Positions 82-24,267 of a DNA stretch of 64,000 bases are shown here, piece after piece. The DNA comes from Haplodiscus bocki. Lineage: Eukaryota. Position numbers and translations under genes: made by a program. Below the pieces are notes generated by a model, which saw only the letters and a list, made by a program, of their open reading frames with translations, was not told the origin of the DNA and searched no databases. Numbering within the stretch: position 1 is the first letter of the stretch; each line of letters starts with the position of its first letter. The DNA lies in the NCBI GenBank assembly GCA_965655095.1, contig OZ296652.1, positions 112,158,001 through 112,222,000 on the forward strand, in the 5' to 3' direction.

Positions 82-2115
82 TCATAATGTTGTCACTAAG
101 GACTCAGATAAGTCTCCCAGACTAGGCGTTTCACCGAACAAATCTTGAAGAATCGAACGAGGCTGTTTAGCGCCTCCATGTCGCAACAGCAAGTGTTTGT
201 ACTTCTCACCTGCCTCACGACAAAACGGGTCAGTTTGGAAAAGGTGCTGCCAGATTTTAGTTGCTATTGCCCTGCAGTAAAGGTAAGAATAATATTTGGC
301 ACCATAACCTATCAGATGTCCAAAACGAAGATAAAAAGCGGCATTGAGATCGATGTCAACTTCAGGGTAAAACTCACCAGCAACTCTGTGGTAAGTGTTA
401 TGTATCTCAATAAGAGCATAATCTGAGTGAATTTGGTAATCAAACGAGGCCAACATCAACTGGTGCTGCATGTCAGCAGCACATCCAAACTTGCGGTGAA
501 ACTCCAGTTCGTACAGCAAATCATTTGGCATTTGTTCATCTGTAGAATAATGTTTTGCAATTCGTTTCAAAACGCGAGAGTCTCGAGTGAAAAACTCCAA
601 CAAGTTGGAAGGTACTTCTGAAAAATCTGTAACGCAACGAGTGCCTGTCACGTGCTGATATCGAGTTCTTGCAACCATTGAGTGCATCGCATGTCCCATT
701 TCATGAAATAAATTTTCCAGCTGACTTATTGACAGCAAAACCGGCTCCTTTTTACCTTCCGGGGCCTTGAAGTTGCAAAGCAGAGCTACAATAGGCATCT
801 GATAGCTCCCATCATTCAAAAGTTTTCCACCCTGAATTGTGAAATGACAATCGGTAGCAGGTTTGGAATCTCGGGCAAAAAAGTCGCAATAGATATACCC
901 CAAAAGTTGTTTGATAGAATCATCATAAACACCTAGTTTTCTCACTGAAGGGTGCCACAGTTCGCCATCTTTCACTTGCTCTGCTTGAATTGACAATCCA
1001 AATGTCTCGGTGAACACTTGATTGAGTCCTTGTAAGCAAGTTCCTAGTGAAAAGTAATCTTTATACGCTGCATCCACTGTTGGTCTTGCTTTGTCCATGT
1101 AGTACTGTACATCCCACGAACTGATCTGCTCAACTGATGTTTTCTCACATTCATTTTTCAACAACTGCAGCTTTCTAAATTCCTGTGCCGAAAAAGGAAG
1201 AAGATTTTCATTGAGCATATGTAGAAAATTGTGCACATTGCCGTGATCTCCAATAGCACTATGCTGAGACACTTTGGCACTGTAATGCTGGTAACCACAC
1301 AGATTGGCCAGTTCCAACCGTTTCAATACGATCGAGTTGAGAATTTGATATTGCGTGGCTTCTCGGTAGAAGAAGGAGCAGTAGCCAGCCTGCCTTATCA
1401 CAGGGTCCTCGTAGTCGCCATAAGGTTGTCTGATTTCAACCATTTCACGTGAATCCGCGCAATCATGAAACATCCATCGAAATTTTTCGTTGAGGTTACT
1501 TTTTGGTAAAGAAACAGGCATCAAAGTTCCATTCATGAAGTTGTGATTGAGCTCCAAAAGTTGTTCATTCAGTTGCACACATCGTTCTCTTTTCTGTCGT
1601 TCTAAATGAATACCGCTTTGCTCGAAATCGTGCATCAAAAGCCTTCCCACGTACGTTGTTTCAGGGTCCATTTCACTTCCCCTGGAAGACAAGGATTCAG
1701 CAAGCAAGTCATAAAGTCTGACATCTGTGTTTAGTGTTTCGACCAAAGAAGAGATTCTGACGACACAGTCGTGAGCTTCTTTTGAATGTGGAGGATGGAT
1801 GAATCGGACAAAATCTGCCATGTCGGCTAGTTTGCACAGAGTGTTCGACAGTTCATCTAACTTCTCCACAACTTTGGTTCGTCCACGCAGTTTAAAGGCC
1901 TGTTGTAGTAGATTTTCACTGTCTGTTAAGGCTTTATCCGTTAATTTTTGGTACGCTTTGGCCCCTTCTGCTAGTTCTGGCATTCCAAACAGCCCGCTTG
2001 GAGCCGCATGTTGGTCATGGTTGACTTGATATTCGGCAGCAGAAAATGAGCTGCGCAAGTCAGTCGCAGCACTTCGCCAAAAACGCAAACAACCTCGCAA
2101 GTCTGAAGTCCTCAT
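82..2115 (-). CDS. MIPEP: Mitochondrial intermediate peptidase (octapeptidyl aminopeptidase, peptidase M3A)
   Basis: Uninterrupted 677-aa ORF from the ATG at 2115. Has an HEXXH zinc motif (LFHEMGHAMHS), followed by TRYQHVTGTRCVTDFSEVPS and RFGHLIGYGAKYYSY, which are typical of MIP/Oct1. LDELSNTLCKLADMADFVR near the N-terminus; Arg/Ser-rich presequence-like start. Confidence 0.92.
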   Translation of the reverse strand: MRTSDLRGCLRFWRSAATDLRSSFSAAEYQVNHDQHAAPSGLFGMPELAEGAKAYQKLTDKALTDSENLLQQAFKLRGRTKVVEKLDELSNTLCKLADMADFVRFIHPPHSKEAHDCVVRISSLVETLNTDVRLYDLLAESLSSRGSEMDPETTYVGRLLMHDFEQSGIHLERQKRERCVQLNEQLLELNHNFMNGTLMPVSLPKSNLNEKFRWMFHDCADSREMVEIRQPYGDYEDPVIRQAGYCSFFYREATQYQILNSIVLKRLELANLCGYQHYSAKVSQHSAIGDHGNVHNFLHMLNENLLPFSAQEFRKLQLLKNECEKTSVEQISSWDVQYYMDKARPTVDAAYKDYFSLGTCLQGLNQVFTETFGLSIQAEQVKDGELWHPSVRKLGVYDDSIKQLLGYIYCDFFARDSKPATDCHFTIQGGKLLNDGSYQMPIVALLCNFKAPEGKKEPVLLSISQLENLFHEMGHAMHSMVARTRYQHVTGTRCVTDFSEVPSNLLEFFTRDSRVLKRIAKHYSTDEQMPNDLLYELEFHRKFGCAADMQHQLMLASFDYQIHSDYALIEIHNTYHRVAGEFYPEVDIDLNAAFYLRFGHLIGYGAKYYSYLYCRAIATKIWQHLFQTDPFCREAGEKYKHLLLRHGGAKQPRSILQDLFGETPSLGDLSESLVTTL

Positions 2116-2189
2116 CACAAATTAGCTTTCCTCACCAACATTTTCATCTCGACTCTGCAAAAGTCAAAGAAAGATGATCGCTAAATTAT

Positions 2190-5274: not shown

Positions 5275-5649
5275 CTGAAATTGCCGAACTCATTCATTAA
5301 TTAAACGACTGTACCGAAAATCAAGGGTGTCTCTTAACTGCCACTTGTCATCGAAAGTCATCGAGAGTCAGGTCACATTTAATTTGTCTACAGCACCATA
5401 CACAGAAGCGGCCAAACACGGCAACCCGATGACATAGTTCAGTAAACAATGTAGCTGTCGTAGCAAGTTTACAATTGCTTAGTTTGCAATTTTGAAGTTT
5501 TACAATTAACTAATAAGATGTCCGGAAAAAGGACCTGACATATCACTATAAAACCGAATGCCTTCGACTTGGATATAATTAAAAACTGAGCGTCAAATCG
5601 AAACAATTACGAAAAATGATAGAAGTAAAAATGGCAGTTTTGAGGGAAG

Positions 5650-5833
5650 CTAGTGAATACCATTATTTCACACGAGAGTAGTGTATCATCCTGCCGTATT
5701 TGCATACAGGGTAAGGACTAGATGAACTCTGTCAACAGGTAATCCTAAAATTCAAAAAATATTTACCTCACCCAGAGTCGAACCCCAAAAATGATGCACG
5801 GAAACTGCCCTACTAACCACTGCGTCATCTGCC
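5650..5833 (-). mobile_element. tRNA-derived SINE-like element
   Basis: The minus strand reads GGCAGATGACGCAGTGGTTAG (Pol III A box) ... GGGGTTCGACTC (B box) at tRNA-like spacing, but no intact cloverleaf is evident. The 3' boundary is approximate. Confidence 0.55.
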
Positions 5834-6200
5834 TTTGAGCTCATGTTGATGAAACTTTAAAATATAGAGAAAAAGGCTCTTGAGTAAAATTCAACTCATT
5901 CTAAAATTCAAAATTTTGACAGCAATTCAAAATTTCAACCGCGCCTAGATTCGATCAGTGAAATGATGCACGGAAAACTGACCATAAAATTCGACTTGTA
6001 CGTCATAAAATTCAGTTAGTCAGCTACAAGATTAGAAGCAGAGGCACACAGACCGCCCGCAATGAAAGATTTCAGCTAAAATTTTGATTGCTAAATTCTG
6101 TCATGAGGTGCAATTTTAGTCATTGCGATTATGGAGTGAAACTGTTTCACGTTTTGACGGCATCATTTATCCCAAGACAATCCTCCTTTCAATGCTATTA

Positions 6201-6635
6201 TGACATGCCCGTCAGATATTATTAATAATAACACCCCGTCCCCTTCTCAGCGCCGTTCTTTTGTTAAAACTTAACTATGATTCAAGTACTCTCGAGTGCC
6301 CTTGTCAAATAAAGCTTGCTTTCCCAAAACACATAATCCTGTTATCACTGCTGTTTAATATACAAAACATTCTTTCCACCCTTTCTTCCTACGTACAATA
6401 ATATCTCTCTATAACACTTTAGTGTGCATTTTACACACACTCAACATTTCTGGAACACTTTTGTCTACTGTATGCAACATTTATATGCAAACGTAATAGT
6501 TTCCCTGCTGTATTACTTAAAGTTTAATATTGTTACTGAAGTCAAAACTGGCCCGACCCTTGCCCTTACAGTCATTAGACCCTCGACAATTTCATAAAGA
6601 AGTTCTAGAAGAAATTCCAATCAGATCAACCCGAA
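6201..6635 (+). repeat. 5' LTR, left half (interrupted by LINE)
   Basis: Colinear with 22962-23395; starts TGACATGCCCGTCAGA; 4 mismatches to the 3' LTR in the first 60 bp. Confidence 0.93.
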
Positions 6636-6870
6636 TATATGTATAATTTCTTTAACCCCAATTTGCGGGAGGATAATTTATTTTTATTTTATTCATTTAT
6701 AAGTATGAACAGTTTGAAAACATTTGAACTATGTGGATACCACAGTTCACACAGCGCCGCATAAAGTTGGAAGCCTAATTGTTGTGATCAATTTATTAAA
6801 TAGATCTTTTCAGGGATTTGATGCGGGGGTGGCAGTTGACACTCCAGATCGTTGATTCCTATAATTACTT

Positions 6871-6924
6871 CTCGGTATTGCCATAGTACTATCGGTATTG
6901 CCGTAGTACTGTCGGTATTGGCGT
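6871..6924 (+). repeat. 20-bp tandem repeat (~2.7 copies) in the LINE 5' UTR
   Basis: TCGGTATTGCC(A/G)TAGTACT-type units start at 6872, 6892 and 6912. Confidence 0.85.
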
Positions 6925-7063
6925 AAAAACCTGGAGAAGTTTCCAATACACTACTACAATATTCTCAACCTTCAAGACACAAAGTACAACAACAGGCCAC
7001 CTGCTTAGGTTCCAAAAACGTTTTGTATTGATATAAATCGGTTGCAAACATTATTTCTACAAT

Positions 7064-7820
7064 ATGGTCAAAAAAGGCAAAAAAAAGTTCAACAAAAACC
7101 TGTCTATGCTCTACATACTCTGCTGAAATATCAGACAATTCCAATTCCATATGTTGCGATTCGTGTAATAACTGGCATCATGGGTCTTGCGTGAACTTAT
7201 CTGCTGAAAATATTTCTTTCCTTGGGAGTAGTAATAACCTTTTTTGGAAATGCAACAGTTATTTTTCCATTAAGGTTACGCCACTTAAAACACTGGAAGC
7301 GAAAATTGACTCCGTCCTATTCAAACTAGAAGAACCCAGAACTGAAATACAACCAGCTCAACCCTCAAAACCTATAGAAGTATTACAAAACAATAAGTAT
7401 GATCATCACTATAGAGTTCGTATTTCCGGAATTAGTGAAAGCAAAAAAAATCATTTATTGATAGACAATTTGCTGATAAAGAAAAAGTGGAAGAAGTATT
7501 CAAAAAACTAAATGTCAATTGTCCAATTGTCGAAACAAACAGACGTGGTAAATTCATTGAAGATCGCCGAAGAAAACTAATAGCTACTTTCTCATCACCA
7601 TGGGATGCGCGTTTAGTAATATCTAGTGCAATTCAGAAAAAAATTATTTGAAACCGATAAAATTCTTATTACAACGGATTTATCACCATCAGATCTTGCA
7701 ATAGAAAGAAAACTATTATCAAAGCGCCATGAACTGATATCCAATGGTGTGCCAAAAGGAACTCTGAAAATACGCTACTTGAAACTTTATCAAGGCAATA
7801 AAGAAGTAAACGTCGACTGA
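7064..7820 (+). pseudogene. LINE ORF1 (PHD finger + RRM-like region), frameshifted
   Basis: Translates to ...SICCDSCNNWHHGSCVNLSAENISFLGSSNNLFWKCNS (PHD), then VRISGISE and ILITTDLSPSDLAIERKL, as in CR1-type ORF1. Confidence 0.8.
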
Positions 7821-7928
7821 CTAAATAAAGAAGCAAAATGTCTTTCAATCAGTTGTCAGAGCCTTCTCTCACTTAATCGTCGCTTATCGTTACTATCAAA
7901 AGTAGTTTTAATATCCGCCGACATTCTT

Positions 7929-10543
7929 TTGTGCACCAAAACTTGGCTCGATGAAAATTTTACACAAGTTATTTTTACTGACGACAATTATTCAATTATA
8001 AATCGTTCGGACAGATATACTGGTTCACACGGCGGTGTATTGGTTCTGTCTAGGAAATGTTTAAAAGTGCGCAAAGTATATCTAAATGCCGATTTTATGT
8101 GCTCAGTTATTTATAACAATGTACCTATTTTTACCATATACAATCCACCCTTTACCAGTGATTTTCGCATCAAAGATATTATTCTGACAGAGAATATCGA
8201 TAAAACTATTTCCAAAGCCAAATGTGACAACGTTATTATTTGTGGTGATTTTAACATGCCAAAAATCGATTGGAACAGCATGACTGAAAGCACAACTTCA
8301 GAGTATCCTTATTCCTCGAAATGTTAAATAAAAACGGCTATGAACAACTTATTACTTCACCCACCCATCAATCTGGAAATATTCTCGGCTGTGTGTTTAT
8401 AAATTATGGGTCAACGCCCTTTACCATAGATGAAAATTCATTTTCCGATCACTATTTTGTTGAGTTCGACATTCCGAGAACACACTCTTCATGTGACTCT
8501 ACATCTCAGCCTATACTATCCCTTAAACCAGATTACCCAATAATAAATCAGTGTATCGGATCTAATTTATTCCCATTTTTTATATCTGATACGACTGCCT
8601 ATTATTTCCACTGGATTGGAGAATTAACCTCCATTAATCAACCCTTCTTCAAACGTAAGCGGCAAAGAAGAACCCAATTTCCTAGATTTTACAGTTCGCA
8701 CACTATTCAAATGCTCAACAAGCTGCATACTACACACAGAAGAATCAATCGACAACCAAAGTATATTCCCACACCATCAGTTCAAATATCAACCACCAAT
8801 GTACAAGAATCTATTGCTCTTGATACCCATATATTCATTGAAAAATTTGTAGACGCGAATCTCAACGTTAATGATTGCTATAAACTGATCAATTCTTTCC
8901 AACGTAGCAATAAATTACCAGCTTGTATGACTCTAAACGAGGAAATCCTAACTGATGATCTTAATAAAACGAATGGTTTCAACAAACATTTTTGCAGTGT
9001 TTTTAAGAGAGATAGTCTACCATTTTCTGATTTCTCTGAAAATACCCTAAACAATATTGAATTCACAATTCAAGACGTCGATAAGGCTCTACGACAAACA
9101 AAACGTGGTTCTAGTACAGATGCTATTAATGGTGATTTCATCTTACACACTTCTAATGCACTGGGTATCCATTACCATAATTTATTAAAGAACTTGTTAA
9201 AACACTCATATTGGCCAAATGAATGGAAGCAAGCTATAATAACACCCCTTCATAAATCTGGTAATATCGAATCGATATTTAATTATAGACCAATTTCTTG
9301 TTTATCAAAATTATCATTAGTATTTGAGCACTTACTGTTCAATAAGTTATATGACATCTTCTCCCCCCAACTATCCGGCTCCCAATTTGGTTTTATGAGA
9401 CGCAAATCCACGGTGCTACGACTAATAATTTATTTCCAGCCTATCTACAATAACGTTGACACAAATACAGATTGTTATGCACTTTATCTCGATTTCTCAA
9501 AAGCATTTGATAGCGTATCTCACGCGACGCTACTCGAAAAAATACGCCTTTTTGGTATTGGAGGATCTTTGCTAAGGTTGCTATCGAGCTACCTAACAAA
9601 TCGCGTTCAATGCGTTAAACTCAACAATATCATATCAGCGTCATTACCAGTCACCAGTGGTGTGCCTCAGGGATCAGTTTTGGGTCCACTCCTATTTTTG
9701 GTTTTTATCAACGACCTGCCAACCCGACTATCGCACTCAAAAACATTCCTGTATGCCGATGATCTTAAGCTTATTCATAACAACCTTCTAGAAATGCAAA
9801 ATGATATATTAGCACTTTCTCAGTGGTCACAGGTAAACAAATTATCATTCAATGCCAAAAAGACACAGCTCATTTCATTCGATTTTCGGTCTCAAGACTG
9901 CATCACAGATATTCCAGATCTTATCCTGGATGACCATGAAATATTTCTTCAAAAAAGCGTGGGTGATCTCGGTCTATCTTTTTCAAGCAACTTAGCTTGG
10001 TCTAAACACATATCTGATCGTCTAAAAGCATGTTACATTAGAATTATATTCTTAAGAAGATGTCTACCGCTGCATTTACATAGCCAAATCAAGACTAAAT
10101 TGTATAAGACCTATATTTCGCCAAAATTACTTTACGGGTCACAAGTTTGGTCCCCGAATCGGAAAGACATATCTAAATTAGAACAGTTCCAGAAAAACGT
10201 CTCAAAGTGGATATGCAAGGGTGCTACATACAAGAGTAGATTAATCTCGTCCGGTTTACTTCCTATGAATCTTCTCCTGAAAATAAACGATCTGCTAGTT
10301 CTCAACCGAATCCTAAATGGCACATATGATTTTGATTTTCATAACTTTTTATCGATCACTTACCCCTGTGACAGTTTTTACTACAACACTAGATCTACCC
10401 TGAAGCCCGTTCTCAAGGTTAAATCAACTCGTAAAAAACAGGCCGACAATCACTTTTTCCAGCGAATTGTTCCCCTGTCAAACTGGTTGATGAAGGAGCA
10501 CAATGTCGACTTTTTCGTTGAGCCTAACATCTTCAAACCTTGA
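7929..10543 (+). pseudogene. LINE ORF2: APE endonuclease + reverse transcriptase, frameshift near 8320
   Basis: IICGDFNMPKIDW, SDH, NYRPIS, YLDFSKAFDSV, GVPQGSVLGPLLFLVFINDL, LYADD. Confidence 0.93.
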
Positions 10544-10649
10544 GTGAAACAGTTGTTCAAACGCTTATTTGCATCAGATGAATAAGTTTTATATATTTTA
10601 GTTTGTCATATTGTTCAATTTTTAGTCCTTACGAATAGTAATAAAGTCT

Positions 10650-10673
10650 TACATACATACATACATACATACA
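10650..10673 (+). repeat. (TACA)6 microsatellite tail of the CR1/L2-like LINE
   Basis: Read directly; follows AATAAA at 10640-10645. Confidence 0.9.
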
Positions 10674-10682
10674 CAATTCTAT

Positions 10683-13600
10683 TCAGTCCAGTTTTTTGAG
10701 CTTAGTATGAGTGTAGTCAGTTTTATACAATCGTCTTGAATTTTTAACGTTCAGGTTTGCACAGTTATTTGGTCTGTTAGCAGATTGCAATTTGCAGTTT
10801 AAAAAGAAATGAAATGGTGTTTCTTCCGATTCACCACATTCACACATCGGTGAAGCACCGAGACTCAATTTCCACTTCATGTCAGCTAGTTTTAGGGAAT
10901 TGCCAATCAGGAACTCGCAGATTTTTTTTTAGCTCTGTATGAGTTGCCGCATATCATCGGAGAGATATCGTTAAATGCTGTGACACTTGCAGTGAGGTTC
11001 GCGAGAAAGAAGTTGTTAAACCCTCTTTTCCATCGTTTGCGCCATTGGTCAGTGATAAAACCCGCAATTTGGTCATTAGTATACTCGAGAATGGTTTCCT
11101 TGTTCATAAATCGACTGTATCTCTTCAAACTTGATTCTAGTGAGTTAGCTCGGCTGCGAGATTTACTAATGGATTTTAAGTGAGTATCCCGTACGAGATC
11201 ATCAATCTGCCTGATTTTGATGGCGAACTTGACAGTTATGCTTTCGCAGTAAATGTCAATCGGTGGTACTCCAGTCAATGCTTCACACGCTTCAATAGAG
11301 GGAGGTGGACCATGTTTGAAAATTTTTCTCATAACATTATTCTGAAGGCATCTGAGTTGGTGGGTATTTTTGTGGTACCAAAGCGGTGCACCATACAGGG
11401 CTTGCGGCACAATAACTGTTCGATAGAGATAAACTTGGGTCGTGAGAGATAGACACCATCTATTTGTGCATTTAATGGTAATGGCAGCCCAATTACGCTG
11501 GGCTTTCGCTACACTCAGCTCAGTATGCTCTTTAAAAATAGTTTTATTCTCAATGATTATCCCTAGAAACTTTGTGGATGTTTTAACTTTACAAATGTCA
11601 GAATTTAGCGCGATTTCGAATGGATCTCAGTTTTGGAACCATTATCAGCCATGCGCCATTTGTCGCACCACCGTTTAATATTATCCGCAGCGGCCTGCGT
11701 TCGGCTTGCAAGTTGTAGAATATCATCGGCAGTTAAAATCAGAGCTGTGTCATCCGCAAACTTGAATCGAATGGGGTATTCATCGATGAAATCAAAATTG
11801 AACAAAATGAACAATGTTGGCGAGAGTACACTGCCTTGCGGTAAGCCGATGTGAATCGGAAAATTATTTGAATGATAGTTTCCGATCTTTATGAAGGATA
11901 ATCTGTTGCTACGAAAAGCCTGGATAATACTGAGCAAGTTTCATGTTATTCTGATGTTCTGAAATTTGTACAAGAGGCCGTCTATCCAAACACTATCGAA
12001 AGCTTTCTCCAGTTCTCTATTCAGCAAAAACCGCTGGTTTTTTATTTATCTGAAAATCTTCCAACTCTAATTGCATTCTGTACAAAGACCGAACGGTGCT
12101 TCTCTTTTCTCTGAAACGTTCTTGTTCTTCTTCGAATATTTTACAAGACGTAAAGAAAGTGCGCAATCTTCGGTTTATCATTCTTTCGAATAATTTTCCA
12201 ACATGACTGGATAAAGTTATTCGTCTGTAGCTGGAACTGAATGCATAATTTGATTTGCCTGGTTTCTTTATGAAGATTACTCGAGATGAGTTCCAGGACT
12301 CGTGCCAACAACTATTGAAAAGTTTCAGTAGCCTCAGTTTCATTCTAAAACCGAAATGTTTCAGCATGGATGCATGAATCCCATCATTATCGAACGCGTC
12401 CGACTGAGGAAAATCTTTGATAGCACATTCTAGTTCATACATCGAGAAGTCCTCGTGGAAGAGTTGTTCATGCTCAGCGTTGATCTGCGGGTCCTGATTA
12501 CGAACCCTCCGTGTCACCTCAACGTAATGATCCTCATCGAATGATCTTCCCTTGAGATGCTGCCCTGGGAAAAATGTTTTTCTCAGTTCCTCAGAGATCT
12601 CTTCTTTCGAAGTAGCCAGTCCTCCATCTGAACTTTGCAATGGGCCTATTGCGAATTCTCTCATTTGGAATACATGCCGAAATTTTCGCCAAAAATCTTT
12701 GCCTTTCCTGTAACTCAATCCAGTTAAAGTTTCTCGCATCCACTCCGGAGATTTCTCAGATAAAAGGCTCTTAAACTCATTTTTCGCATTATTAAGTCTT
12801 TCTCCATTTGAGTTGCTGAAGCAGTACTTGAATTTTTTCGGAGAGCTCTGAGTTCCGCACTTTTTTGAGATGGATCTTCAAACCAGAAAGGTTTGCTATG
12901 CCTGGAGCTTCTTTTATAAGGAATGGCCAATCGTGTTGCTTCGGTAATGTCGACAAGTACACTTCCCCATTGATCTGTGGCGCTTGGGCATTGAACTGCC
13001 TCAAGTGATGCATGCGATGAATTTTCTAACACGTTCTGCCAGGCTTCCCAGTCTGCTTTTTGCAACCACGGTTTGGTATTTCCTTCTTCCGTCGTCCTAC
13101 TTATGTTGCATTTCACTATTAAAGGTATATGTCCACGTTGCGGCGCTCCTGTGAAGAGTTCAACATTTGGGTCAGTTGTTAGCTCGAATCCTACTTGCGT
13201 AGCGATTCGTCCACTTACAATGCATAGATCTATAACACTCGAACCATTGGATGACAAAAAAGTTTTTTCTCCATTATTAAGGATAATGTCTTCAGCAGAA
13301 AGACTTTCCACAAGGAGATAACCGTTAGGATTGCATATACTATCACCCCACAGGCAGTGTCTAGCATTGCAGTCTCCCAAGAACAACACTCCATCAAGGT
13401 TGTGCTGATGGTAGAAGTTTACCACTTTTTCTCTCTGTTTTATAAATTTTTCCATCGAAGCGGTTTCATTTGGTTTCAAGTATGCTGTACCGATTATGAT
13501 CTGGAGCCCCGCCGCCACCGTCAAGATCCAAATGCTGTCATGCTCTTTCAGTTCAAGTTCATTTAAACGAGTGTAACTCATGTCCTTATTTATTATGATA

Positions 13601-13761
13601 GCGACGCAATCACTTCTCACGCCACGACATGTTGATTCCGTGAAGTAATTTGCAGCGACGTCCTTATCTAGTTGTCTATTTGTTTCGTTGAGGCAACAGA
13701 TTGTCGGTTTATGTTTTTCAAGGTAGTTGTTAAAAGTCAGCTTGCTATGCTCGGCAAAACC
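10683..13761 (-). pseudogene. LINE ORF2 (APE endonuclease, RT, C-terminal CCHC), fragmented
   Basis: CCLNET, GDCNARH..WG, SVIDL (endonuclease); SYRRITLSSHVGKLFERM, GLPQGSVLSPTLF, FADD (RT); CECGESEETPFHFFLNC (CCHC). No RNase H seen. Confidence 0.9.
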
Positions 13762-14208
13762 ATCAACCCGAAAGCAACTCAACCAGAAGACCAGTTGCCG
13801 AAGAAAACAATCTCTCCTCTGCAACTCAACAAGAGACTCTTCAAACGTCCCCAGAAACAATTCTGAAGCTATGTAAGTTTTGTAAAACAAAAATCCAGTT
13901 TAAAAGTGTTTTGTCTTTTCCTTTCTCCGCTTTCTCAGTAATATAAATTCTTTCCTAAAAAACCAAATACAATTTTCATTCACTTGAGATATCCCGCTAG
14001 CAACCACCAAATCAAAAACACCTAAATGGTAATTTTAGAAATTACTGACCTCCTTTCTAAATAACAGTCGTCCTCCGCATCCAAAATTTTTTTCTAGCAA
14101 AGTGTTTTGAGAAGCATAAGACTGTTACACTATGTAACGATGCAAATCGTGCCTCCGAATCCAGGAGAATCAGAAAGAGTATGCGAACGAACATAAAAAC
14201 CTATGTCA
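13762..14208 (+). repeat. 5' LTR, right half
   Basis: Colinear with 23385-23824; ends CCTATGTCA. Confidence 0.93.
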
Positions 14209-14536: not shown

Positions 14537-15760
14537 ATGTCGACAACCGCCGCTACGTCAACGACCACCACCGCCACCTTTACAAACGCAGGAGGAGCCA
14601 CTCCTAGCACACCTACCTCCTCCACTGCCACCACCAGTGCAACAAGTACACCAGTTTCGTCGAGCGCAACTAGCTCAACGCCTACTGCAAACCAAAGCAA
14701 TGGTGCTGTTGCACCTGCCTCGCCGTTTGCGACACCTTTTGGCCCCGGAGGTGCCCCTTTCCTAACTCCTTTGCCATCATGCCTTATGTCAGAAAATTTC
14801 ACTGGTTCTGGTGACTTTGAGGTATATCTACAGAACTTTAACACTGCCGCGTTTCTTTCTGGTTGGTTTTCCCCAGCCCATGACAACAGACCACATTATT
14901 TCGCTCTTCGGCTGCGCCGAAATGCCCTGCATTTCTACACAACGCTTTCGGCAGCCCAACAAACTGACTTCAATTTATTAGTTGATGCCTTCCGGCAGAA
15001 CTATTCAACGAATGTGGACATACTGAAAGCAAGACTGAAAACTGCGCGGCAGCAACCCAATCAAGTCATTTCTTCCTTCTTGTGCGACATTCGCACACCT
15101 GCGCGACTCGCCTATTGCGCCTTTCCTCACTTAGTGGAGCAAATTGTCCCGACTAGTTTCATCGAAGGCCTGAGCGATGATGCAACGCTTCCATGGGAAC
15201 TTAAAAAGTCCAAACCAGCTACAGTTGATGATGTTCTAGCCCTGGCCATGGAATTATATTCTTTCCTGGAAATTGAGCAAGGAGCCCCATCAACAAGCAA
15301 AATGCCCAAGACCAGCGTAAACGCGATCTCCTGTGAAACTCCTGCGCCACCCGCCAAAAAATGGATGGACGAATTTGTTCCAACGCTAACGGAGGGATTC
15401 AAGAACGCCATGCCTAAGCCGAGCCAAGAAGTCTCCTGACAGCAAAATAGTAGGCCAAATCGCAACCAACCTTCTCGGTTGAACTGCACTGACACCCAGG
15501 GAACCCGCACCGTTCGGTTCCAGAATAGTTCGAATGGAGGACGAAAAACTAACAACCCGGACAAAAACTGGTGCGGATCCAACCGCCAAAATACGAACTC
15601 TAACCCGCCGAATGACAACAAAAATAGCTCCGAAGGACCCTGGAAAATTTGTAAACATGACAATCATGCCTTGAACGATTGTAAAGCTTGTTTCAAGTGT
15701 GGAAAGAGTGGAGACTTCGGCAATGAATGCAGAAGCAAAACGTCCAACAATTTAAACTAA
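14537..15760 (+). pseudogene. gag: gag (Ser/Thr-rich N-terminus, capsid-like core, degenerate zinc knuckles)
   Basis: ENFTGSGDFEVYLQNF, LKARLKTARQQPNQ, SFIEGL. Stop at 15437-15439. Degenerate knuckles ICKHDNHALNDC and CFKCGKSGDFGNEC. Confidence 0.85.
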
Positions 15761-18700
15761 AAGCGTCTACGCCAGAGGGTCAACGCGCAGACAAAGACAC
15801 TTCACCAGGCCCACAAGTTCAAACATTGAATTCCGTTGTTGATCACCGGAGTGTGTTCATTCAAATAAAAAACTTTGATCGCATAATTGAAGCGATATGC
15901 GACAATGGAGCAAGTGTGCCATGCCTCAGTACTGAAATCTATGACTCCCTCAAAACGAAACACTCCTTGAAAATGGAGACCTCAAGAACGCAACTAAAAG
16001 CCGCAAATGAATTGCCCATAGAGAAGCGAGGCATCGTACGCCTCCCGGTAAAACTGTGTGGAATAAATGTTGAACATAAAATTCACGTTTTGGCTAAGTC
16101 AGAGGCCCACTGCCTGATAGGCCTTGATTTTTGGAAGATCACCAATATGATCCACTTTTTTCGAAGAAGAAATTGCGAGTGAATGATGACACTTTTGTCC
16201 CATTGTACCACAAACATTATACCATACAAACTGATCAGGTCTTCCGAGTTGTTTCCACTGACTATGTTTGAATCCCAACAGGTCATTCGATGATCATACC
16301 GGCCCACATCCCAGGATGGAAGCGCCCACTAATAAAGTTGGCCGCCGTATTCGAGCCGCAAGAACGGTTCAAGGTAGACAAAGAGGTCAGTGCTGACCAT
16401 GTCTTGTTCAATTTCGCCGAGCAAACATTAGTCGCAATGGATAAAATTCAGAACATTAGTACACTCAAAAGCCTCAAAAGTCCGAAACTAACCAACAAAA
16501 AGGATGCCAAATACGATTTGAAATTTGTCAAAAAATCTATCGATACTGGTTTTTCCCTGGAAGCAAAAGCAAAGTTCTCTGAACTAATCAGTGACTTCTC
16601 TGATGTGTTCTCGAAAAACGAAAGGGATATCGATCAATGCGATGTCACCGCCCACAAAATACAAACTCAACCAGGTTTGCGACCAGTAAAACTCCCTAAC
16701 AGAAGGATGCATCTCCACTACAAACAAGTCTTACAAGAAAAAGTTGATGCTTTCTTGGAAAAGAAACTTATCACGCCTTGTCATAGCCCGTACAGTGCAC
16801 CAGCCATGCTCGTCCCGAGGAAAAACCGCGAACTCCGCTTAGTAATTAACTACCGTCAATTGAATAAACAAACCATCAAATCCTGTTGGCCTATTTCTTA
16901 TATTGAAAAAATATTGATACTCCTGAGGGAAGTGAGTACTTTACCACGATCGATATGTCGTGGCGTTTCTATCAGCTGCCAACGGAAGAAGGGAGCCAAG
17001 ACATCACTGCGTTTAGTACGCCCTCGGGTACCTTCAAATGGCTCCGCATGCCCATGGAACTGACTGGTAGTCCGAACACCTTCCAGAGTCTTATGAAGCA
17101 AGTCCTTGTTGGCCTGACTTGGAAGACAACCGTCCCTTATTTAGATGATTGTATCATCTTCTCTTCTACAGCGGACGAACATATCTAGAGACTAAGAGAA
17201 GTCCTTGAAAGGTTTGGTCCTGCGAACCTGAAAAAAAAACCGACAAAGTGTGAGTTTTTCCGAACTCGCGTCCCCTTCCTTGGCCATATCATCAGCAAGA
17301 ATGTTCTAGAGGCGGACCCCGACAAGATTGTTGCCGTTAAAAAGTTTCCGATTCCAACAACCCCAACTGAAGTAAAATCATTCCATGGATTGTGCTCCTA
17401 TTATCGCCGATACGTAAAAAACTTTGCTGAAATAGCCCGACCTCTCCATAAGGCAGGTGAATTAACTACAACTTTCAATTGGACACCGGAAGCCCAAGGC
17501 GTTTTTGAAACTCTGAAGTCTCGACTAACAACTACGCCCATTTTGGCCTTTCCTATGATGAAGTAAACTTCCATCCTGCACACCAACGCCAGCCTAACGA
17601 CTATGGGTGCTGTCTTGCTGCAAGTACAAGATGGAGAGGAACATGTCCTCTGCTACGCCTCCAAAGCTTTCTCGAATGGCCAGACTAGATATTCCGCGAC
17701 GAAAAGAGAATTGTTAGCTGTCGTTAATTTTACACGACAGTTCAGACATTATCTGATTGGTCAAAAATTCACAAAAATCACTAATCACCGTGCCCTCCAA
17801 GGGCTCCACAACTTCAGAGACCCGGATGCACTAACCACCCGTTGGCTCGAGAAACTCGCTACTTTCAACTATGAGGTAGTGCATAGGCCCGGAAAATTGA
17901 TCAGCCCTACCAATGGTCTCTCCCGAACACCTCTTAGAGCATTTAATGCAACTGTAACTGAGGACCCAGCTGCACATGCGCCTGAAGTAGACCAGGAAAA
18001 CACCCAATCGTACCTAGGAAAGTCCACGAGACCCCAAACATTTCCATTAATCGGAAATCCAAGGCGACGTACTGCAATCAATTGACTCCATTACTCACTG
18101 TATTTCAGCTGATTTCAAGCTAGGAGCAGGAATCGCTCGAAGAATTAAGCGACGCTTTCCAATGCAGTACCCGGACAAAGAAGCCATTGCTAGCGAAGGC
18201 ATTTGGCCGCAACGGATCCCGAATCGCAACGTTTTGTGTACCACTTAGAAACAAAAGCGCGGTATTTCCACAAGCCTACTTATAAAGCCTTGAGGGCATC
18301 TTTAGAGGCAATGCAAAGGCATACCGAGAGCAACAATGTCCAGCGCATCAGCTTGCCCCAAATAGGCTGTGGCATCGACAAGTTGGACTGCAAAAAGTCC
18401 GGAAGTTGTTCCACGAAGTTTTCCAGCCTACGAGTATAGATCTTACTGTGTTTTTCAAACCCCATTCAGGAACGCTGACTTCAAGTCAAATCCCAATGGA
18501 TTCCCTTATTGATACCGATAAGGCCAAAGCCCTCGATCTTTCAGACAACATACCTTCACTGGCGTCTGCTCAGAGAAACGATCCAGCACTCAAGCACTTA
18601 CTTCCTTGGATCACACGTGGTAGGCCGCCGAGCTCACAAGAATTACAGGGACTATCCCAAACAACAAGGAAATTGGCACACGAATTCCGAAGTTTAAAGG

Positions 18701-18900
18701 TCGTTAATGAAAATCTTTGTCGAGAATTAATCCACAAAGGAGGTTCATTGCACCATCAACAACACATGCCTGCGTCGTTAGTACCCCAAATTCTGAAGTC
18801 GATCCACTCATCGCCCACAAGACTCAAGCCCAACCTCAACGCAACCTTCGCAACAGCACCACACAGCAACGTAATGCTCAATCGTTGTGAAATGCAATAA
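15761..18900 (+). pseudogene. pol: pol: aspartic protease, RT, RNase H, macrodomain, N-terminal integrase remnant
   Basis: AICDNGASV (protease); SPYSAP, INYRQLN, RMPMELTGSPNTFQ, PYLDD (RT); RYSATKRELLAVV (RNase H); ILKSIHSSPT (start of the integrase Zn region). Many frameshifts and stops. Confidence 0.92.
18033..18460 (+). pseudogene. TARG1/OARD1 (Poa1p-like) macrodomain inside pol
   Basis: Across two frameshifts it reads EIQGDVLQSIDSITHCISADFKLGAGIARRIKRRF...RFVYHLETKARYFHKPTYKALRASLEAMQRH...ISLPQIGCGIDKLD...FHEVFQPTSIDLTVF. This matches the OARD1 motifs HCIS.D..MGAGIA, LITK...KPTY..L..SLEAM and PRIGCGLD. Confidence 0.9.
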
Positions 18901-19019
18901 TTCCACCTGACCTAAGTCAATTCAATTCCCCCGCCAGCTCGAAGAAGAAAAAGAAAAGTTCGCCAAACTTATAAATTTTACTCTTTTCTGAACGCTAATT
19001 TAACAACTTTTACCCTTCA

Positions 19020-21350
19020 AATCCTTCTTTTAGGCTCCCCTTCCTACTTTCACTTGTCCTTCTCAATAGCCCGCCCTCTTGTTACTTTGTGATCTACTAC
19101 TCAACTCATCTAAATGATCAACCAGAAGTCCCAGTTTTCAAGAAAGGTGCTGCCTTTCTCTTTAAATACCAAGCAGTCTTTTCCGAAAGTGAGAGCAAAG
19201 TTCGAGGGTTCTCCCCGTACCCAAAAAGCCCAGATGCCAATCTTACTGGAGCTGAAGAGTTGTGGAACATAGCGACAATACGAAAAACCGGAATTGGTGG
19301 CATATATGTCCAAAAATTTTATGAATTCCCACAAATCAACGAAACATATGGCTTATTAACGACACAGTTGAAGGATCGCGTAGAATTGATCAAGCTGGAA
19401 GTGAAACAATCAAAGGATGAGCAAGACAAACTTGCAGACGTAATGAAGTCTTTTCTTCCGAAACAGTATCAGAAGGACGTGGCGACGCTTCCAATTTCGA
19501 AACGATTTATTGGCGCCATGGCTGCTCTTGGAGCAGGTGCCGGGTTGATCCTTGGCGACCCGTTCAAAGAAACTGCATGTACAGCTGTCTTCACTTTTAA
19601 CTAGTGCGATGACACAAGCAGTTTGTCCAGTTTGTCCCAGGTTGTGGACCAGATCCTGAAAACGCAGGAAGAAACATTAGCGACCTTGCAACGTGTCAAG
19701 TCGGCCAATGATTCAAACTTCTTCCCACTGGGAAACGAAGTCCGAGCAACGTTACAAAACGTTAAGAACCTTCGTGATGCTGTGAATGATTACCTACAGG
19801 CTCTGCAAGATCGAATAAAAGGAATCCAAGGAGATTTGATACAACATAAAGAAAGTCAACGAAGAAAAGCGCAACAATCCCACTTCCTCCAAGAGATTAG
19901 ATATGTCATCTCCCAATTGGGTACTCTTTACACTCACATAAAATCTTACCAAGCTGCGTTCTACGCTTACAAGATTAACTTGTTCTCAATAATCTCGTCC
20001 CTTGCTAGTGGCCAAAAACCCTCCCAGTTCCTTTTACCCCAGGAAATTGCCGACATTGTACGCACCCTGTCTGAAGAAGAGAGTTACCGTGGTACGAAAC
20101 TCACCCCTGCTGTACAGCCTGGTTTCGTAGCTGCTTTTTACGAAAATCAACTCGTGTTGGAGGTCACGTTAATTCTGCATGGTATTTCAGTTGTCCTTGG
20201 TGTTCCTATGAACTCTAAGTCCTCTACTTTTAACGTGTACCACGCTACCCCGCTTTATCCTTCTAATGGCGATAACAAAACAGCCTCCTTGTTTCAGCTC
20301 TCAAAACCGTTTTTGACTGTGGCTGAAGACGACTCCAGATACCCTGAGTTGGACAGCTTGGCGCTACAGCAATGCTTGGCGAACAACCGTATTCGCCTCT
20401 GTCGCAAAGGGTTCTCGACGACCACTGATGATACCCTCCTATGCCTGAGCTCTTTAATGTTCAATTACTCTATCCTGCTATTGCACAACTGCCCCGCCGT
20501 TTCTGTCCTCTTACCAGATGCCCCACAAGCCTTTTACTTAGCCGAAGGATTATACCACGTTATATAGCGAGAACCGCTTCTTCACCTAAAAAATGCTAGT
20601 GATTTACATGGTGTCAGTGTTCCAACCATTTCTCGTCAAGCCTGCATTTTGAGACCCAGCTGTCACAGAACCCTAACCCTGAATAAAGGAGACTTAGTCC
20701 TTAAACCGGACATGGACTACTGCTCGACCAGTCCAGAGCCCTTCTTTGCAACTATCAGGCTAGTCCCTTCCCTAGCGAAAATTTTCCAGCGTGTACCTCC
20801 TTCTAATCAAGTCTTCCACGTCTATTCGTTGGGTGAAGCCCGCCATTCAATCCTCAGTAGCGTCCGCATGGAGCTAGCAGAGCTTCCGGATGTACAGAGA
20901 ATGTCAGTTGAATCAATTGATTGACTAGAAGCACCTATCGCCCAGTATTATTTGTCAATTTTTCCGGCCTCATCACAAGCGCTTGAGTCATACCTCCCTT
21001 TTTGCACAGCTGTTTTGTTCTCGACTGTCTCAATTGCACTCTCATTGTTGACTTTCACCAAAAGTTTTACCCTGTTCCGGCGTCAATGGAAACGACTTTT
21101 CCTCCACCCGCACCAATACTTCAAGAGCTCCAAAGGAAGACTCTTGCACGTTATGGATGATGAAAACATGTTTGCAGCCTCTGACGGTACCACCGCCTTC
21201 CTTCAGCTTAGTCTGGAGGAATTTACTGCCATAAAGGCCCTTGCTAATGAAACCTTGAATCAACCACCCCATTCAACTAAAGTACACACTGCCTGTAATA
21301 ACCCTCAGGTCCCCAGTCGTGTCTATCCAGACATCACAGCCCCTCATTAA
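19020..21350 (+). pseudogene. env: env-like class I fusion glycoprotein, three in-frame premature stops
   Basis: ORFs 19089, 19623, 20649 and 20952 share one frame. Hydrophobic signal-like stretch (LPFLLSLVLL), basic cleavage site plus fusion peptide ISKR|FIGAMAALGAGAGLILG, heptad repeat, Cys-rich region, TM segment (AVLFSTVSIALSLLTF) followed by RRQWKR. Confidence 0.85.
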
Positions 21351-21788
21351 GCCGAGTCTACAACGTAATCTAACTAAACCCTTGAACATTTCTTTACTAT
21401 AACATGTCTTACATATCATATTTAAAATCTGAACACCTTGCACTTCTGTGCCCCTTTTGTACGTTTCCGTTTTCATCTGGCTTTGAGTCATATCCTGGCC
21501 ACCCTCTTGCACGTTTCAGTGCCCGTTTTCTTGTGCGTTTCTGTACCTGCCCAGCTTTTGTTGGCCCTGTCTGCACGCGTCTGTGCCCCTTTCTGTTCAG
21601 ATTTCGTTCTGACTCGTGGAATGAACAGAGAGACATGGTCTCCTCTGTCAGTTGAACTTAACGTTTCACAGTATACGTCTCCGTATACAGGCACCTTGCT
21701 TGATATGTGCAATAAAAAAAACAAACAATGAGAAAAACGACTCGATGCATTTTTCATTTTTTCCAGCCCTTCTCCCTTTTTTTCTCTT

Positions 21789-22880
21789 TTGTGTTTTAAT
21801 GTATTTAGCGTGCTTTGTTTCAGGTTTCCCTCCAAGCGTGCCTCGGGATCGCCTCTCTACACCTGCAGCGGAAAAGTTGCCCTCATATCTCCTGGAGATG
21901 TCATCCACATCTTAGACGAATGGGAGTACAAAGTGCTCCTACTGAACGCCCACTCATGTAGAGTGGTTCTAAAACGCGTGGATCAGGCTTCTAACGGATC
22001 TTATTCGTCGTCCTGTCACCAGCGCAGCTTCATCTGCCCCTCCACAGCCATAAGCTTGATGCCCCCAATCTTACACGATGCCTCGGTGACAGCAGACGAG
22101 TTGACTCAAAATTGCATGTGCGAACTAACCCCACCCCCCATACTACCAGAAGTCGATGACATTGCAACACAGTGCACTTTTACGGATACCTGCTCAGTCT
22201 CCACTCAATGCTACTTTGAGGCAGACGAATACACCGGTTTTAAATGCCAAAAATTCGACACTGTAGATCGTCTAATACAAGGTTTTGAAGAAGCAGAAAC
22301 ATATGCCAATGCCGCTTTCGCTGAGCACTGCTCCCAAGTCAACGAGGTTAATCAACAGAAAGAAAAGATCGCAAACTTACAACAGCGCATCACCGCCCTT
22401 ACAACAGAGAATGAAGCTCTACTTAAACGGACCCTCGAACTAACAGAGGATGTATCCTCCCTAGGATCGATAACAGCAAACAGCCGTCAAGTGCCCGTCA
22501 GGCAAAGAATGGTGTGGTTCAACTTCCTCAAACTGCCTCTTCTGCAAATGCCTTTAGACATATATCCTGAAGACGTGCCTCCCGAATACTTCTTCGATCT
22601 TCTGAATTGTTCCCCTTCTTAGACCCCTGAAGTAAAACAAGAAAACATCCGCTGTCTTTTAGAACTTTTACATCCAGATAAAAATCCTTCCGTCTCTCCT
22701 CTTGCTAGCCAATTCGTTCCAATCATATCCTATTTAAAAACAATTCTACCAGACCCTGCTCTTGTGCCCGTATACAAATGTTGCGACTTCTTTGCCGTTG
22801 TCCGACGCCAAAGAGGATCCAGATCCTGCAAAAAATGCGACCCGTTTTTACAATCACTTGATGATCTAATGGATCTTTAA
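21789..22880 (+). pseudogene. ORF4: coiled-coil protein with C-terminal DnaJ J-domain; one internal TAG at 22620
   Basis: Reading through the TAG gives YFFDLLNCSPS*TPEVKQENIRCLLELLHPDKNPSVSPLASQFVPIISYLKTILPDPALVPVY, which aligns to the J-domain pattern YY..LGV...A...EIK..YR.L....HPDKNP.....F..I..AY..LSDP..R..Y. Ends at TAA 22878-22880. Confidence 0.75.
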
Positions 22881-22961: not shown

Positions 22962-23824
22962 TGACATGCCCGTCAGATTTTATTAACAACAACACCCCGT
23001 TCCCTTCTCAGCGCCGTTCTTTTGTTAAAATTTAATTATGATTCAAGTACCCTCGAGTGCCTTGTCAAATGAAACTTGCTTTCACAAAACACATAATCCT
23101 GTTATCATTGCTGTTTAATATACAAGGTATTCTTTCTACCCTTTCTTCTTACGTACAATAATCTCTCTCTAAAACACTTTAGTGTGCATTTTACACATAC
23201 TCAACTTTTGTGAAACACTTTTGTCTATTGTATGCAACATTTATATGCAGTCGTAAATTTTCCCCTGCTGTTTTACTCAAAGTTTAACATTGTTGCTGAG
23301 GTCAAAACTGACCCGACCCTTGCCCCTGCACTCATTAGACCCTCGACAATTTCATAAAGATTTTTTAAAAAAAATTCCAATCAGATCAACACGAAAGCAA
23401 CTCAGTAAGAAGACCAGTTGCCGAAGAAAACAATCTCTCCTCCGCAACTCAACAAGAGACCCTTCAACCGTCCCCAGAAGCAATTCTGAAGCTATGTAAG
23501 TTTTGTAAACCAAAATTTTAGTTTGAAAGTGTTTTCTTTTTTCTTTTCTCTTCTTTCTTAGTGATTTAAATTCTTTCCTAAAAAACCAAATACATTCACT
23601 TGAGATATTCCGCTTGCAACCGCCAAATCAAAAACACCTAAATGGTAATTTTAGAATTTATTGATTTCTTTTTTAAATAACAGTCGTCGTCCGCATCCAA
23701 AATTACTTTCTAGCGAAATGTTTTGAAAAGCATTTGACTGTTACACTATGTAACGATGCAAATCGTGCCTCCGAATCCAGAGGAATCAGAAAGAGTATGC
23801 GAACGAACATGAAAGCCTATGTCA
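22962..23824 (+). repeat. 3' LTR (863 bp, uninterrupted)
   Basis: TGACA...TGTCA inverted termini; colinear with both halves of the 5' LTR. Confidence 0.95.
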
Positions 23825-24267
23825 ATGGTGCTGTGAAATATGCTGATGTCAAGTTCGCTCGGACGACTCCAGGAAAGGTGAGAAAGTTTGCCTGGTTTTT
23901 ACATATTACGTGATTTTGTTTTATTAATCGAGAATCACCTCTGGTGAAGTGATCCCAGCGTTCTTGTACGAGTCTCTTGAGCCGACGGTGGAAGCTAAAC
24001 CAAATCGATCAACTTTCGGTAATAATATTTTGCCTCGCTTTGTTTGATCTGTCTGGCACTGCTTGTCACTCTATCCGAGCTTTGAAGCTCTCAACGGTCA
24101 AAACTAGTGGTAAATTTTACTTTCACGCTGCATATTGTGCTAGAAATGTTTTTAAAAAGTGAAGTAGCAGAATACAGTTACATCAAATCCTGCCTACGGG
24201 ACCTCATGGAGGAGGAACGAGAGATGTTGGCATTATTTCAGCAAACCCTGCCAACAATTATCGCCTG

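What the first reader, a model, noticed from the sequence alone, without database searches (positions are those of the whole stretch)
18033..18460. TARG1/OARD1-type macrodomain inserted between RNase H and integrase
The ORF track splits it. Joining the frames gives a complete ~140-aa domain colinear with OARD1, keeping the Lys of the L.TK motif and the Asp of GCG(L/I)D that form the TARG1 catalytic pair. It is intronless and embedded in the pol polyprotein, so it would be packaged with RT and IN. TARG1-class enzymes remove ADP-ribose from acidic residues and from thymidine in DNA. Inference: it could protect cDNA or integration intermediates from PARP-type marking.
Basis: partly seen in the sequence, partly recalled or inferred. 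Interest (0 to 1): 0.82.

Follow-up and report, generated by a model that had tools for sequence, protein, structure and literature searches.

The report
Jumping gene carries ADP-ribose eraser
A virus-like jumping gene in this animal has built a TARG1-type enzyme, one that strips ADP-ribose tags off proteins and nucleic acids, into its replication protein and keeps it under selection, which suggests such elements counter ADP-ribose-based host defence much as some RNA viruses do.

Summary
Confirmed. Window 18042-18459 is a decayed TARG1/OARD1-type macrodomain in the pol of an env-bearing Ty3/Gypsy element. This copy is dead: it has frame breaks and lacks the integrase core. Elsewhere in the genome the domain sits in frame between RNase H and integrase in single ~1,560-1,650-aa pol ORFs, in six subfamilies. 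Young copies have LTRs 98.6-100% identical. An unbroken database relative folds as TARG1 (Foldseek E 5e-15). Both catalytic residues (Lys84, Asp125 equivalents) are kept at 88 of 93 places. dN/dS is 0.03-0.20 in most within-subfamily pairs. The closest outgroup elements lack the domain. Four distant Gypsy lineages carry the same enzyme type elsewhere in pol, and an insect RNA virus also carries it. The host has an expanded set of RNA-helicase-PARP fusion genes. No activity was tested. Ten paper searches found no Gypsy macrodomain; macro ORFs are reported in fish endogenous retroviruses.

The parts
6201..6635 (+). 5' LTR, first part (split from the rest by ~7.1 kb of LINE-type insertions)
   Evidence: 394/440 identical to the 3' LTR
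13762..14206 (+). 5' LTR, second part
   Evidence: 399/448 identical to the 3' LTR
14537..15760 (+). gag with CCHC knuckle; in-frame stop at 15437-15439
   Evidence: 80% identical to a gag of an unbroken copy that hits Retrotrans_gag and zf-CCHC; ORFs
15886..16131 (+). aspartic protease (approximate bounds)
   Evidence: gag-asp_proteas E 1.9e-4; tblastn
16787..17293 (+). reverse transcriptase with YLDD motif, broken (approximate bounds)
   Evidence: RVT_1 E 2.9e-13
17567..17926 (+). RNase H
   Evidence: RT_RNaseH E 5.7e-27
18042..18459 (+). TARG1/OARD1-type macrodomain, 140 aa, in three frames with one stop
   Evidence: fold of natural relative P0009
18254..18256 (+). codon of the Lys84-equivalent catalytic lysine
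   Evidence: alignment to human TARG1
18377..18379 (+). codon of the Asp125-equivalent catalytic aspartate
   Evidence: alignment to human TARG1
18460..18818 (+). linker and start of the integrase N-terminal region; the integrase core is deleted after 18818
18999..21362 (+). env-like ORF (class I fusion-protein-like), with stops
   Evidence: 79% identical to a 786-aa ORF of an unbroken copy; Atlas look-alikes Baculo_F / Fusion_gly 0.94-0.95 with a low recognition value, so a lead only; no Pfam or PDB sequence hit
21732..22880 (+). fourth ORF: coiled coil plus J-domain with HPD motif; one stop
   Evidence: DnaJ E 1.3e-8, over cut-off, in the matching ORF of a subfamily-B copy; weak (E 0.22) in the window piece
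22962..23825 (+). 3' LTR

Best explanation
An ancestor of this Gypsy clade took up an intronless TARG1-type gene into the RNase H-integrase spacer of pol. It is made as part of Pol (shown by single ORFs) and so enters the particle (inferred from Ty3/Gypsy biology). It keeps TARG1's Lys/Asp pair and most of its basic nucleic-acid-binding patch (shown). It most likely works as an eraser: it removes mono-ADP-ribose that host PARPs put on the element's RNA or on Gag/Pol proteins, and perhaps on single-stranded cDNA, so that translation, packaging and reverse transcription go on (inferred). The host's expanded RNA-helicase-PARP fusions are the likeliest writers (inferred from co-occurrence only).
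For: Fold: AlphaFold2 on natural P0009 with an 86-row alignment gave mean pLDDT 85. Foldseek's top 8 rows are human TARG1 (best E 5.3e-15), with DarG next; VIA Z 20.4, rmsd 2.2 A over 138 residues. Catalytic Lys at 92 of 93 distinct places, Asp at 89 of 93, both at 88 of 93. Among 105 ORFs before de-duplication, the R86 site is R/K in 99 and the R126 site is K/R in 85. Macro dN/dS: subfamily A 0.14-0.20, D 0.03-0.12, F 0.13, the distant integrase-tail lineage 0.18 (Fisher p 6e-4 to 4e-14 in six of the seven pairs). The second linker runs near 1 in subfamily A. RT-RNase H tree: the carriers form one clade (97*), sister to a macro-less element (100*), then to macro-less elements of this genome. 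The same enzyme type recurs on four distant RT branches at other positions, and in an RNA virus polyprotein. Host: 26 PARP matches; 9 of 12 long-ORF loci fetched are SF1-helicase-PARP fusions, four showing the H-Y-E triad. TARG1 removes ADP-ribose from RNA uracil-N3 and guanine-N1; RNA-virus macrodomains counter PARPs (PMC7050484 passages).
Against: No activity, substrate or packaging was measured. Close relatives without the domain exist (L138, L139), so it is not essential. The domain changes faster than RT, RNase H or the integrase core between subfamilies (48-55% versus 73-93% identity to subfamily A). Two pairs gave weak selection: 0.64 against a decayed copy whose domain start reads out of register, and 0.54, not significant, with three changes in all. 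PARP1 has been reported to help retroviral integration as well as to hinder it. The link to the helicase-PARPs is co-occurrence in one genome. Many host genes here are intronless too, so lack of introns says little.
Confidence: 0.55

Rival explanations
1. DNA-side eraser: the enzyme clears ADP-ribose from single-stranded cDNA or from PARP1 and chromatin at the integration gaps, so that reverse transcription and gap repair finish.
For: DarG is the next-best fold. TARG1-class enzymes act on thymidine-linked ADP-ribose (PMC9411070 passages). Four other lineage groups place it on the integrase tail. PARP1 acts at retroviral integration gaps, and the host has PARP1.
Against: The Nucella element has it at the RNase H end, away from integrase. 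An RNA virus without a DNA stage carries it with both residues. The expanded host PARPs are fused to RNA-type helicases.
Confidence: 0.2
2. One reading: it binds ADP-ribose on chromatin and steers integration to damaged or PARP-marked sites, as chromodomains do on chromovirus integrases (that comparison is recalled).
For: Integrase-tail position in lineages G/H/I, P0078/P0198/P0199 and P0171; P0198 has two copies in tandem.
Against: A pure reader would not need both catalytic residues (88 of 93). In this clade it is separated from integrase by a fast-changing linker. Insertion-site bias was not tested.
Confidence: 0.12
3. Metabolic or structural helper: it clears O-acetyl-ADP-ribose or similar metabolites, or serves as an RNA-binding module in the particle, with no host defence involved.
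For: TARG1-class enzymes cleave O-acetyl-ADP-ribose (PMC8120803 passages) and bind RNA through the basic patch, which is largely kept.
Against: The host already has TARG1-type genes (L075 with two, L076 with one), so a diffusible housekeeping activity need not be carried. Repeated uptake by mobile elements and a virus fits conflict better.
Confidence: 0.1
4. Neutral passenger or a later retrocopy dropped into this one element.
For: The window copy itself is broken.
Against: In frame in six subfamilies whose synonymous sites are saturated; purifying selection; no polyA tail; does not group with the host's present TARG1 genes.
Confidence: 0.02

Closest known systems
Human TARG1/OARD1 (C6orf130; PDB 4j5r, 2l8r), ALC1-like macrodomain class
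   Same: Fold, ~40% identity, Lys84/Asp125 pair, most of the basic patch.
   Different: Here it is a domain of a retroelement polyprotein. The middle segment differs from the cellular pattern (alignment). Activity is untested.
DarG antitoxin macrodomain (PDB 5m31, 5m3i)
   Same: Second-best fold (Z 19.6); catalytic lysine.
   Different: 17-20% identity. DarG lacks the Lys/Asp pair, which this domain has.
Macrodomains of coronaviruses, alphaviruses and hepatitis E virus
   Same: ADP-ribose eraser carried inside a viral polyprotein, countering host PARPs.
   Different: Those are of another macrodomain class (Z about 12-14 here) and belong to RNA viruses; this one is TARG1-type in a reverse-transcribing element.
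Macro-domain ORFs of epsilon-like fish endogenous retroviruses (Basta et al. 2009, seen only through a passage of PMC4977317)
   Same: A macro domain captured by an LTR retroelement.
   Different: Described there as additional ORFs in Retroviridae; their class and position could not be checked (paper not held). Here it is fused inside a Gypsy pol.
Captured accessory enzymes of retrotransposons: DNA methyltransferases (PMC5890265); GDSL esterase, DEDDy nuclease and paramyxovirus-type env in rotifer LTR elements (PMC5408684)
   Same: Recurrent uptake of host or viral enzymes, in one case into the pol ORF; class I fusion-type env.
   Different: The word 'macro' does not occur in the main text of either paper.

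Membership tests
TARG1/OARD1-type macrodomain | Compact macro fold, closest to TARG1 | tested here: met
   on natural relative P0009; the alignment included cellular TARG1-like rows
TARG1/OARD1-type macrodomain | Catalytic Lys84 and Asp125 | tested here: met
   Present in the window; both at 88 of 93 places. The folded protein P0009 itself has Glu at the Asp site.
TARG1/OARD1-type macrodomain | Basic nucleic-acid patch (K50, R86, R126) | tested here: met
   R at the K50 site in 90, R/K at R86 in 99, K/R at R126 in 85 (Q in 17) of 105 ORFs
TARG1/OARD1-type macrodomain | Hydrolyses ADP-ribose from Glu/Asp, DNA or RNA | not testable with these tools
   Needs an enzyme assay
Ty3/Gypsy (Metaviridae) | gag, then pol in the order PR-RT-RNase H-IN | tested here: met
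Ty3/Gypsy (Metaviridae) | LTRs TG..CA, primer-binding site, short target-site duplication | tested here: met
   LTR pairs found in 7 of 8 copies with both flanks fetched; 4-bp duplications and a TGG-starting primer site in 4 of 4 examined
Ty3/Gypsy (Metaviridae) | Placement in a named clade against reference elements | not tested
   The tree held no named reference elements
Env-bearing (errantivirus-like) Gypsy element | Third ORF encoding a fusion glycoprotein | tested here: inconclusive
   ~790-830-aa ORF in subfamilies A-D; Atlas 0.94-0.95 with low recognition; no Pfam or PDB hit over cut-off
Kuafuorterviruses | IADD/VADD/LADD in place of YXDD | tested here: not met
   YLDD in the window versus PMC11673190 passage
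Processed retrocopy of host TARG1 | Own polyA tail and target-site duplication; out of frame with pol | tested here: not met

The most novel reading that the evidence does not exclude
Animal Gypsy retrotransposons have repeatedly armed Pol with an active TARG1-type eraser to undo an ADP-ribosylation defence against retroelements, written in this host by an expanded family of RNA-helicase-PARP fusion proteins that mark element RNA. That would be a matched writer/eraser arms race between host and retrotransposon, and the retroelement counterpart of the coronavirus macrodomain.
Probability: 0.3. Interest if true: 0.88.

Novelty: new variant of a known kind. Interest (0 to 1): 0.72.

Why it matters
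Whether ADP-ribosylation restricts reverse-transcribing elements is unsettled; the PARP1 and retrovirus literature is contradictory. A selected eraser carried inside Pol, in several Gypsy lineages, is evolutionary evidence that it does. It also gives a direct test: candidate eraser and candidate writers come from one genome, and macro-less sister elements serve as controls. It points to RNA ADP-ribosylation, only recently described, as a possible anti-transposon mark, and it warns that many predicted 'OARD1-like' genes in invertebrate assemblies may be transposon pieces.

Tried and rejected
Folding P0009 without an alignment failed (pLDDT 42). An AU test could not reject one common origin of all 29 transposon-borne macro rows (p 0.476), so 'independent captures from hosts' is not shown; transfer between elements is equally open. 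The macro tree has few columns and 43 of 90 branches are open. An Atlas search with an RNase H-macro-integrase protein gave only plain Gypsy clusters under 0.9. Viral contigs gave no relative. Sequencing runs: no RNA holder listed. No tRNA or Rfam match in the window. Kuafuortervirus membership was rejected. Scan look-ups gave only unrelated bacterial and phage macro notes. Literature searches found no paper on a Gypsy-borne macrodomain. Basta 2009 and a Kojima review were not held, Repbase could not be searched and no supplements were read, so prior annotation is not excluded. The donor of the domain was not identified. Insertion-site bias and protease cleavage sites around the domain were not tested.

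Full report
OBSERVATION. The region lies in a decayed LTR element on the + strand. Pfam finds protease, RT and RNase H pieces upstream and a weak Macro hit (E 1.1e-3) at 18194-18436. Searched separately against solved structures, the two main pieces hit only human OARD1/TARG1 (E 1.9e-14 and 9e-4). An unbroken pol of the family maps the 140-aa domain to 18042-18459, with a stop at 18048-18050 and frame switches near 18220 and 18395. The Lys84 and Asp125 equivalents are at 18254 and 18377. In this copy a ~1.5-kb deletion at 18818|18822 removes the integrase core. Its LTRs are 89-90% identical, and the 5' one is split by LINE insertions. This copy is old and dead.

THE FAMILY. The window's genome is 1.5 Gb; I did not identify the organism. 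Four macro queries each gave 5,300-6,100 first-look candidates, of which 108-150 were scored; these are not copy numbers. About 38 of the 150 matches lie in open frames of 1,575 aa or more (counted by eye). Of 15 loci fetched for their long ORFs, 12 hold PR-RT-RNase H-macro-zinc finger-integrase in one ORF of 1,590-1,617 aa, and the other three hold RNase H-macro-integrase in one ORF. Further subfamilies show the same order: six in all (A-F). Database proteins agree (P0007, P0013, P0026, P0027). LTR pairs were found in 7 of 8 copies with both flanks fetched, 98.6-100% identical. Four of four examined show 4-bp target-site duplications and a primer-binding site. The clade is therefore recently active. 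These elements also carry a ~790-830-aa env-like ORF and a fourth ORF with a J-domain.

WHAT THE DOMAIN IS. A natural relative (P0009) folded with an 86-row alignment gave pLDDT 85. Human TARG1 takes the top 8 Foldseek rows and DarG follows; VIA Z is 20.4 for TARG1, 19.6 for DarG, and 14 or less for viral macrodomains. Lys84 and Asp125 are TARG1's catalytic pair (PMC9411070 passages). Over 93 distinct genomic places with an unbroken C-terminal part, Lys is kept in 92, Asp in 89, both in 88 (12 twice-fetched loci, the host genes and the metagenome loci were dropped). The basic patch that TARG1 uses on RNA is largely kept. No polyA tail follows the domain in six copies checked.

SELECTION. Nei-Gojobori dN/dS for the macro is 0.14-0.20 in subfamily A, 0.03-0.12 in D, 0.13 in F and 0.18 in the distant lineage G. 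In most of these pairs RT and the integrase core are lower (mostly 0.01-0.13), and the second linker is about 1 in A. Against this: 0.64 versus one decayed copy, and 0.54 (three changes, not significant) in lineage H. Between subfamilies synonymous sites are saturated. Identity to A is 48-55% for the macro, 73-93% for RT, RNase H and the integrase core, and 13-37% for the linkers. So it is a maintained accessory domain, less constrained than the core enzymes.

HISTORY. On an RT-RNase H tree of 19 rows the carriers form one clade (97*). Its sister is a macro-less metagenome element with a 116-aa spacer, against 243-302 aa in carriers (100*); next come macro-less elements of this genome. The simplest reading is one gain at the base of the clade. 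The same enzyme type also occurs on four distant RT branches: on the integrase tail of a second lineage of this genome (RT 28% identical); on the integrase tails of P0078/P0198/P0199 (doubled in P0198) and of P0171; and at the RNase H end of a Nucella lapillus element whose integrase precedes RT. P0127 has it after a protease-like domain. It is also at the start of the Diabrotica undecimpunctata virus 1 polyprotein. The sequences of P0021, P0078, P0171, P0198 and P0110 show both catalytic residues. The macro tree separates this clade (97*) from the host's own TARG1-type genes at L075 and L076, two of which are split into exons. An AU test does not reject one origin for all transposon-borne copies (p 0.476). 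Repeated placement in different lineages and positions is shown; independent capture from hosts is not.

HOST SIDE. The genome has 26 PARP-domain matches. Of 12 fetched for long ORFs, nine are SF1 helicase-PARP fusions (four with a ZNFX1-domain hit); the others are PARP1, tankyrase and a WWE-PARP. Four of the fusion PARP domains show H-Y-E; five others have a non-glutamate third residue, as mono-ADP-ribosylating enzymes do (that reading is from established PARP knowledge). This is co-occurrence, not a demonstrated link.

MECHANISM. Shown: fold, catalytic residues, in-frame position, selection, recurrence. Inferred: co-packaging with Pol, hydrolase activity, and a role against host ADP-ribosylation (0.55). 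I lean to RNA or protein targets because the position in Pol is flexible, an RNA virus carries the same type, TARG1 is efficient on RNA-base ADP-ribose, and the expanded host writers are fused to RNA-type helicases. Rivals: DNA/integration-side eraser 0.2, chromatin reader 0.12, metabolic or RNA-binding helper 0.1, passenger 0.02.

PRIOR KNOWLEDGE. Ten searches found no paper on a Gypsy macrodomain. Seen as passages: PMC4977317 (fish endogenous retroviruses with extra macro ORFs, citing Basta 2009, which was not held), PMC4695847, PMC9411070, PMC8120803, PMC4245714, PMC7050484. Abstract and section 7: bioRxiv 10.64898/2026.03.31.715305. First third plus passages: PMC11673190. Term look-ups with no 'macro' in the main text: PMC6431247, PMC5890265, PMC3248453, PMC5718144, PMC5408684. 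Repbase, subscription papers and supplements were not seen and may already list such elements.

VERDICT. Real, and stronger than the single broken copy suggested. New variant of a known kind (a viral-style macrodomain eraser, here TARG1-type and inside a retrotransposon Pol). Interest 0.72.

Noticed in passing
window 21732-22880; L087, L088, L089, L092, L094, L104: A fourth ORF after env encodes a coiled coil and a DnaJ J-domain with an HPD motif (Pfam E 1.3e-8 in L092), present in subfamilies A, B and C. An Hsp70-recruiting accessory protein in a Gypsy element may merit its own study.
   Followed up: partly
L140-L148 (own genome): Expanded family of long, single-ORF ZNFX1/UPF1-like helicase-PARP fusion genes in two subgroups about 30% identical; some have two PARP domains.
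   Followed up: partly
L066, L067, L072, L073, L079: A second, distant Gypsy lineage in the same genome with a 1,900-2,000-aa pol, a weak dUTPase-like hit, and a TARG1-type domain after the integrase.
   Followed up: partly
P0110: Diabrotica undecimpunctata virus 1 polyprotein begins with a TARG1-type macrodomain with both catalytic residues.
   Followed up: partly
window 18999-21362; L033:6886-9243: env-like ORF resembling class I fusion proteins by language-model features only. At L077 pol and env read as one 2,378-aa frame.
   Followed up: partly
window ~33900-64000: Tandem array of about 14 copies of a 2.2-kb, 32% GC, strand-skewed unit with no long ORF (longest stop-free frame 101 aa) and no Rfam match; units 92-96% alike in the interior and decaying toward the left edge.
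   Followed up: partly
window 6636-13761: Two LINE-type elements in opposite orientation (RT ORF 8288-10543 on +; endonuclease and RT pieces 10907-13899 on -) sit inside the 5' LTR.
   Followed up: partly
window 82-2121 (-): Single-ORF M3 peptidase gene, 679 aa (Pfam E 2e-106).
   Followed up: no
P0074, P0138, P0150, P0164, P0173: TARG1-type domains fused to a DNA ligase 3-type BRCT domain in several database proteins; one host TARG1-type gene here (L075) groups weakly with them.
   Followed up: no
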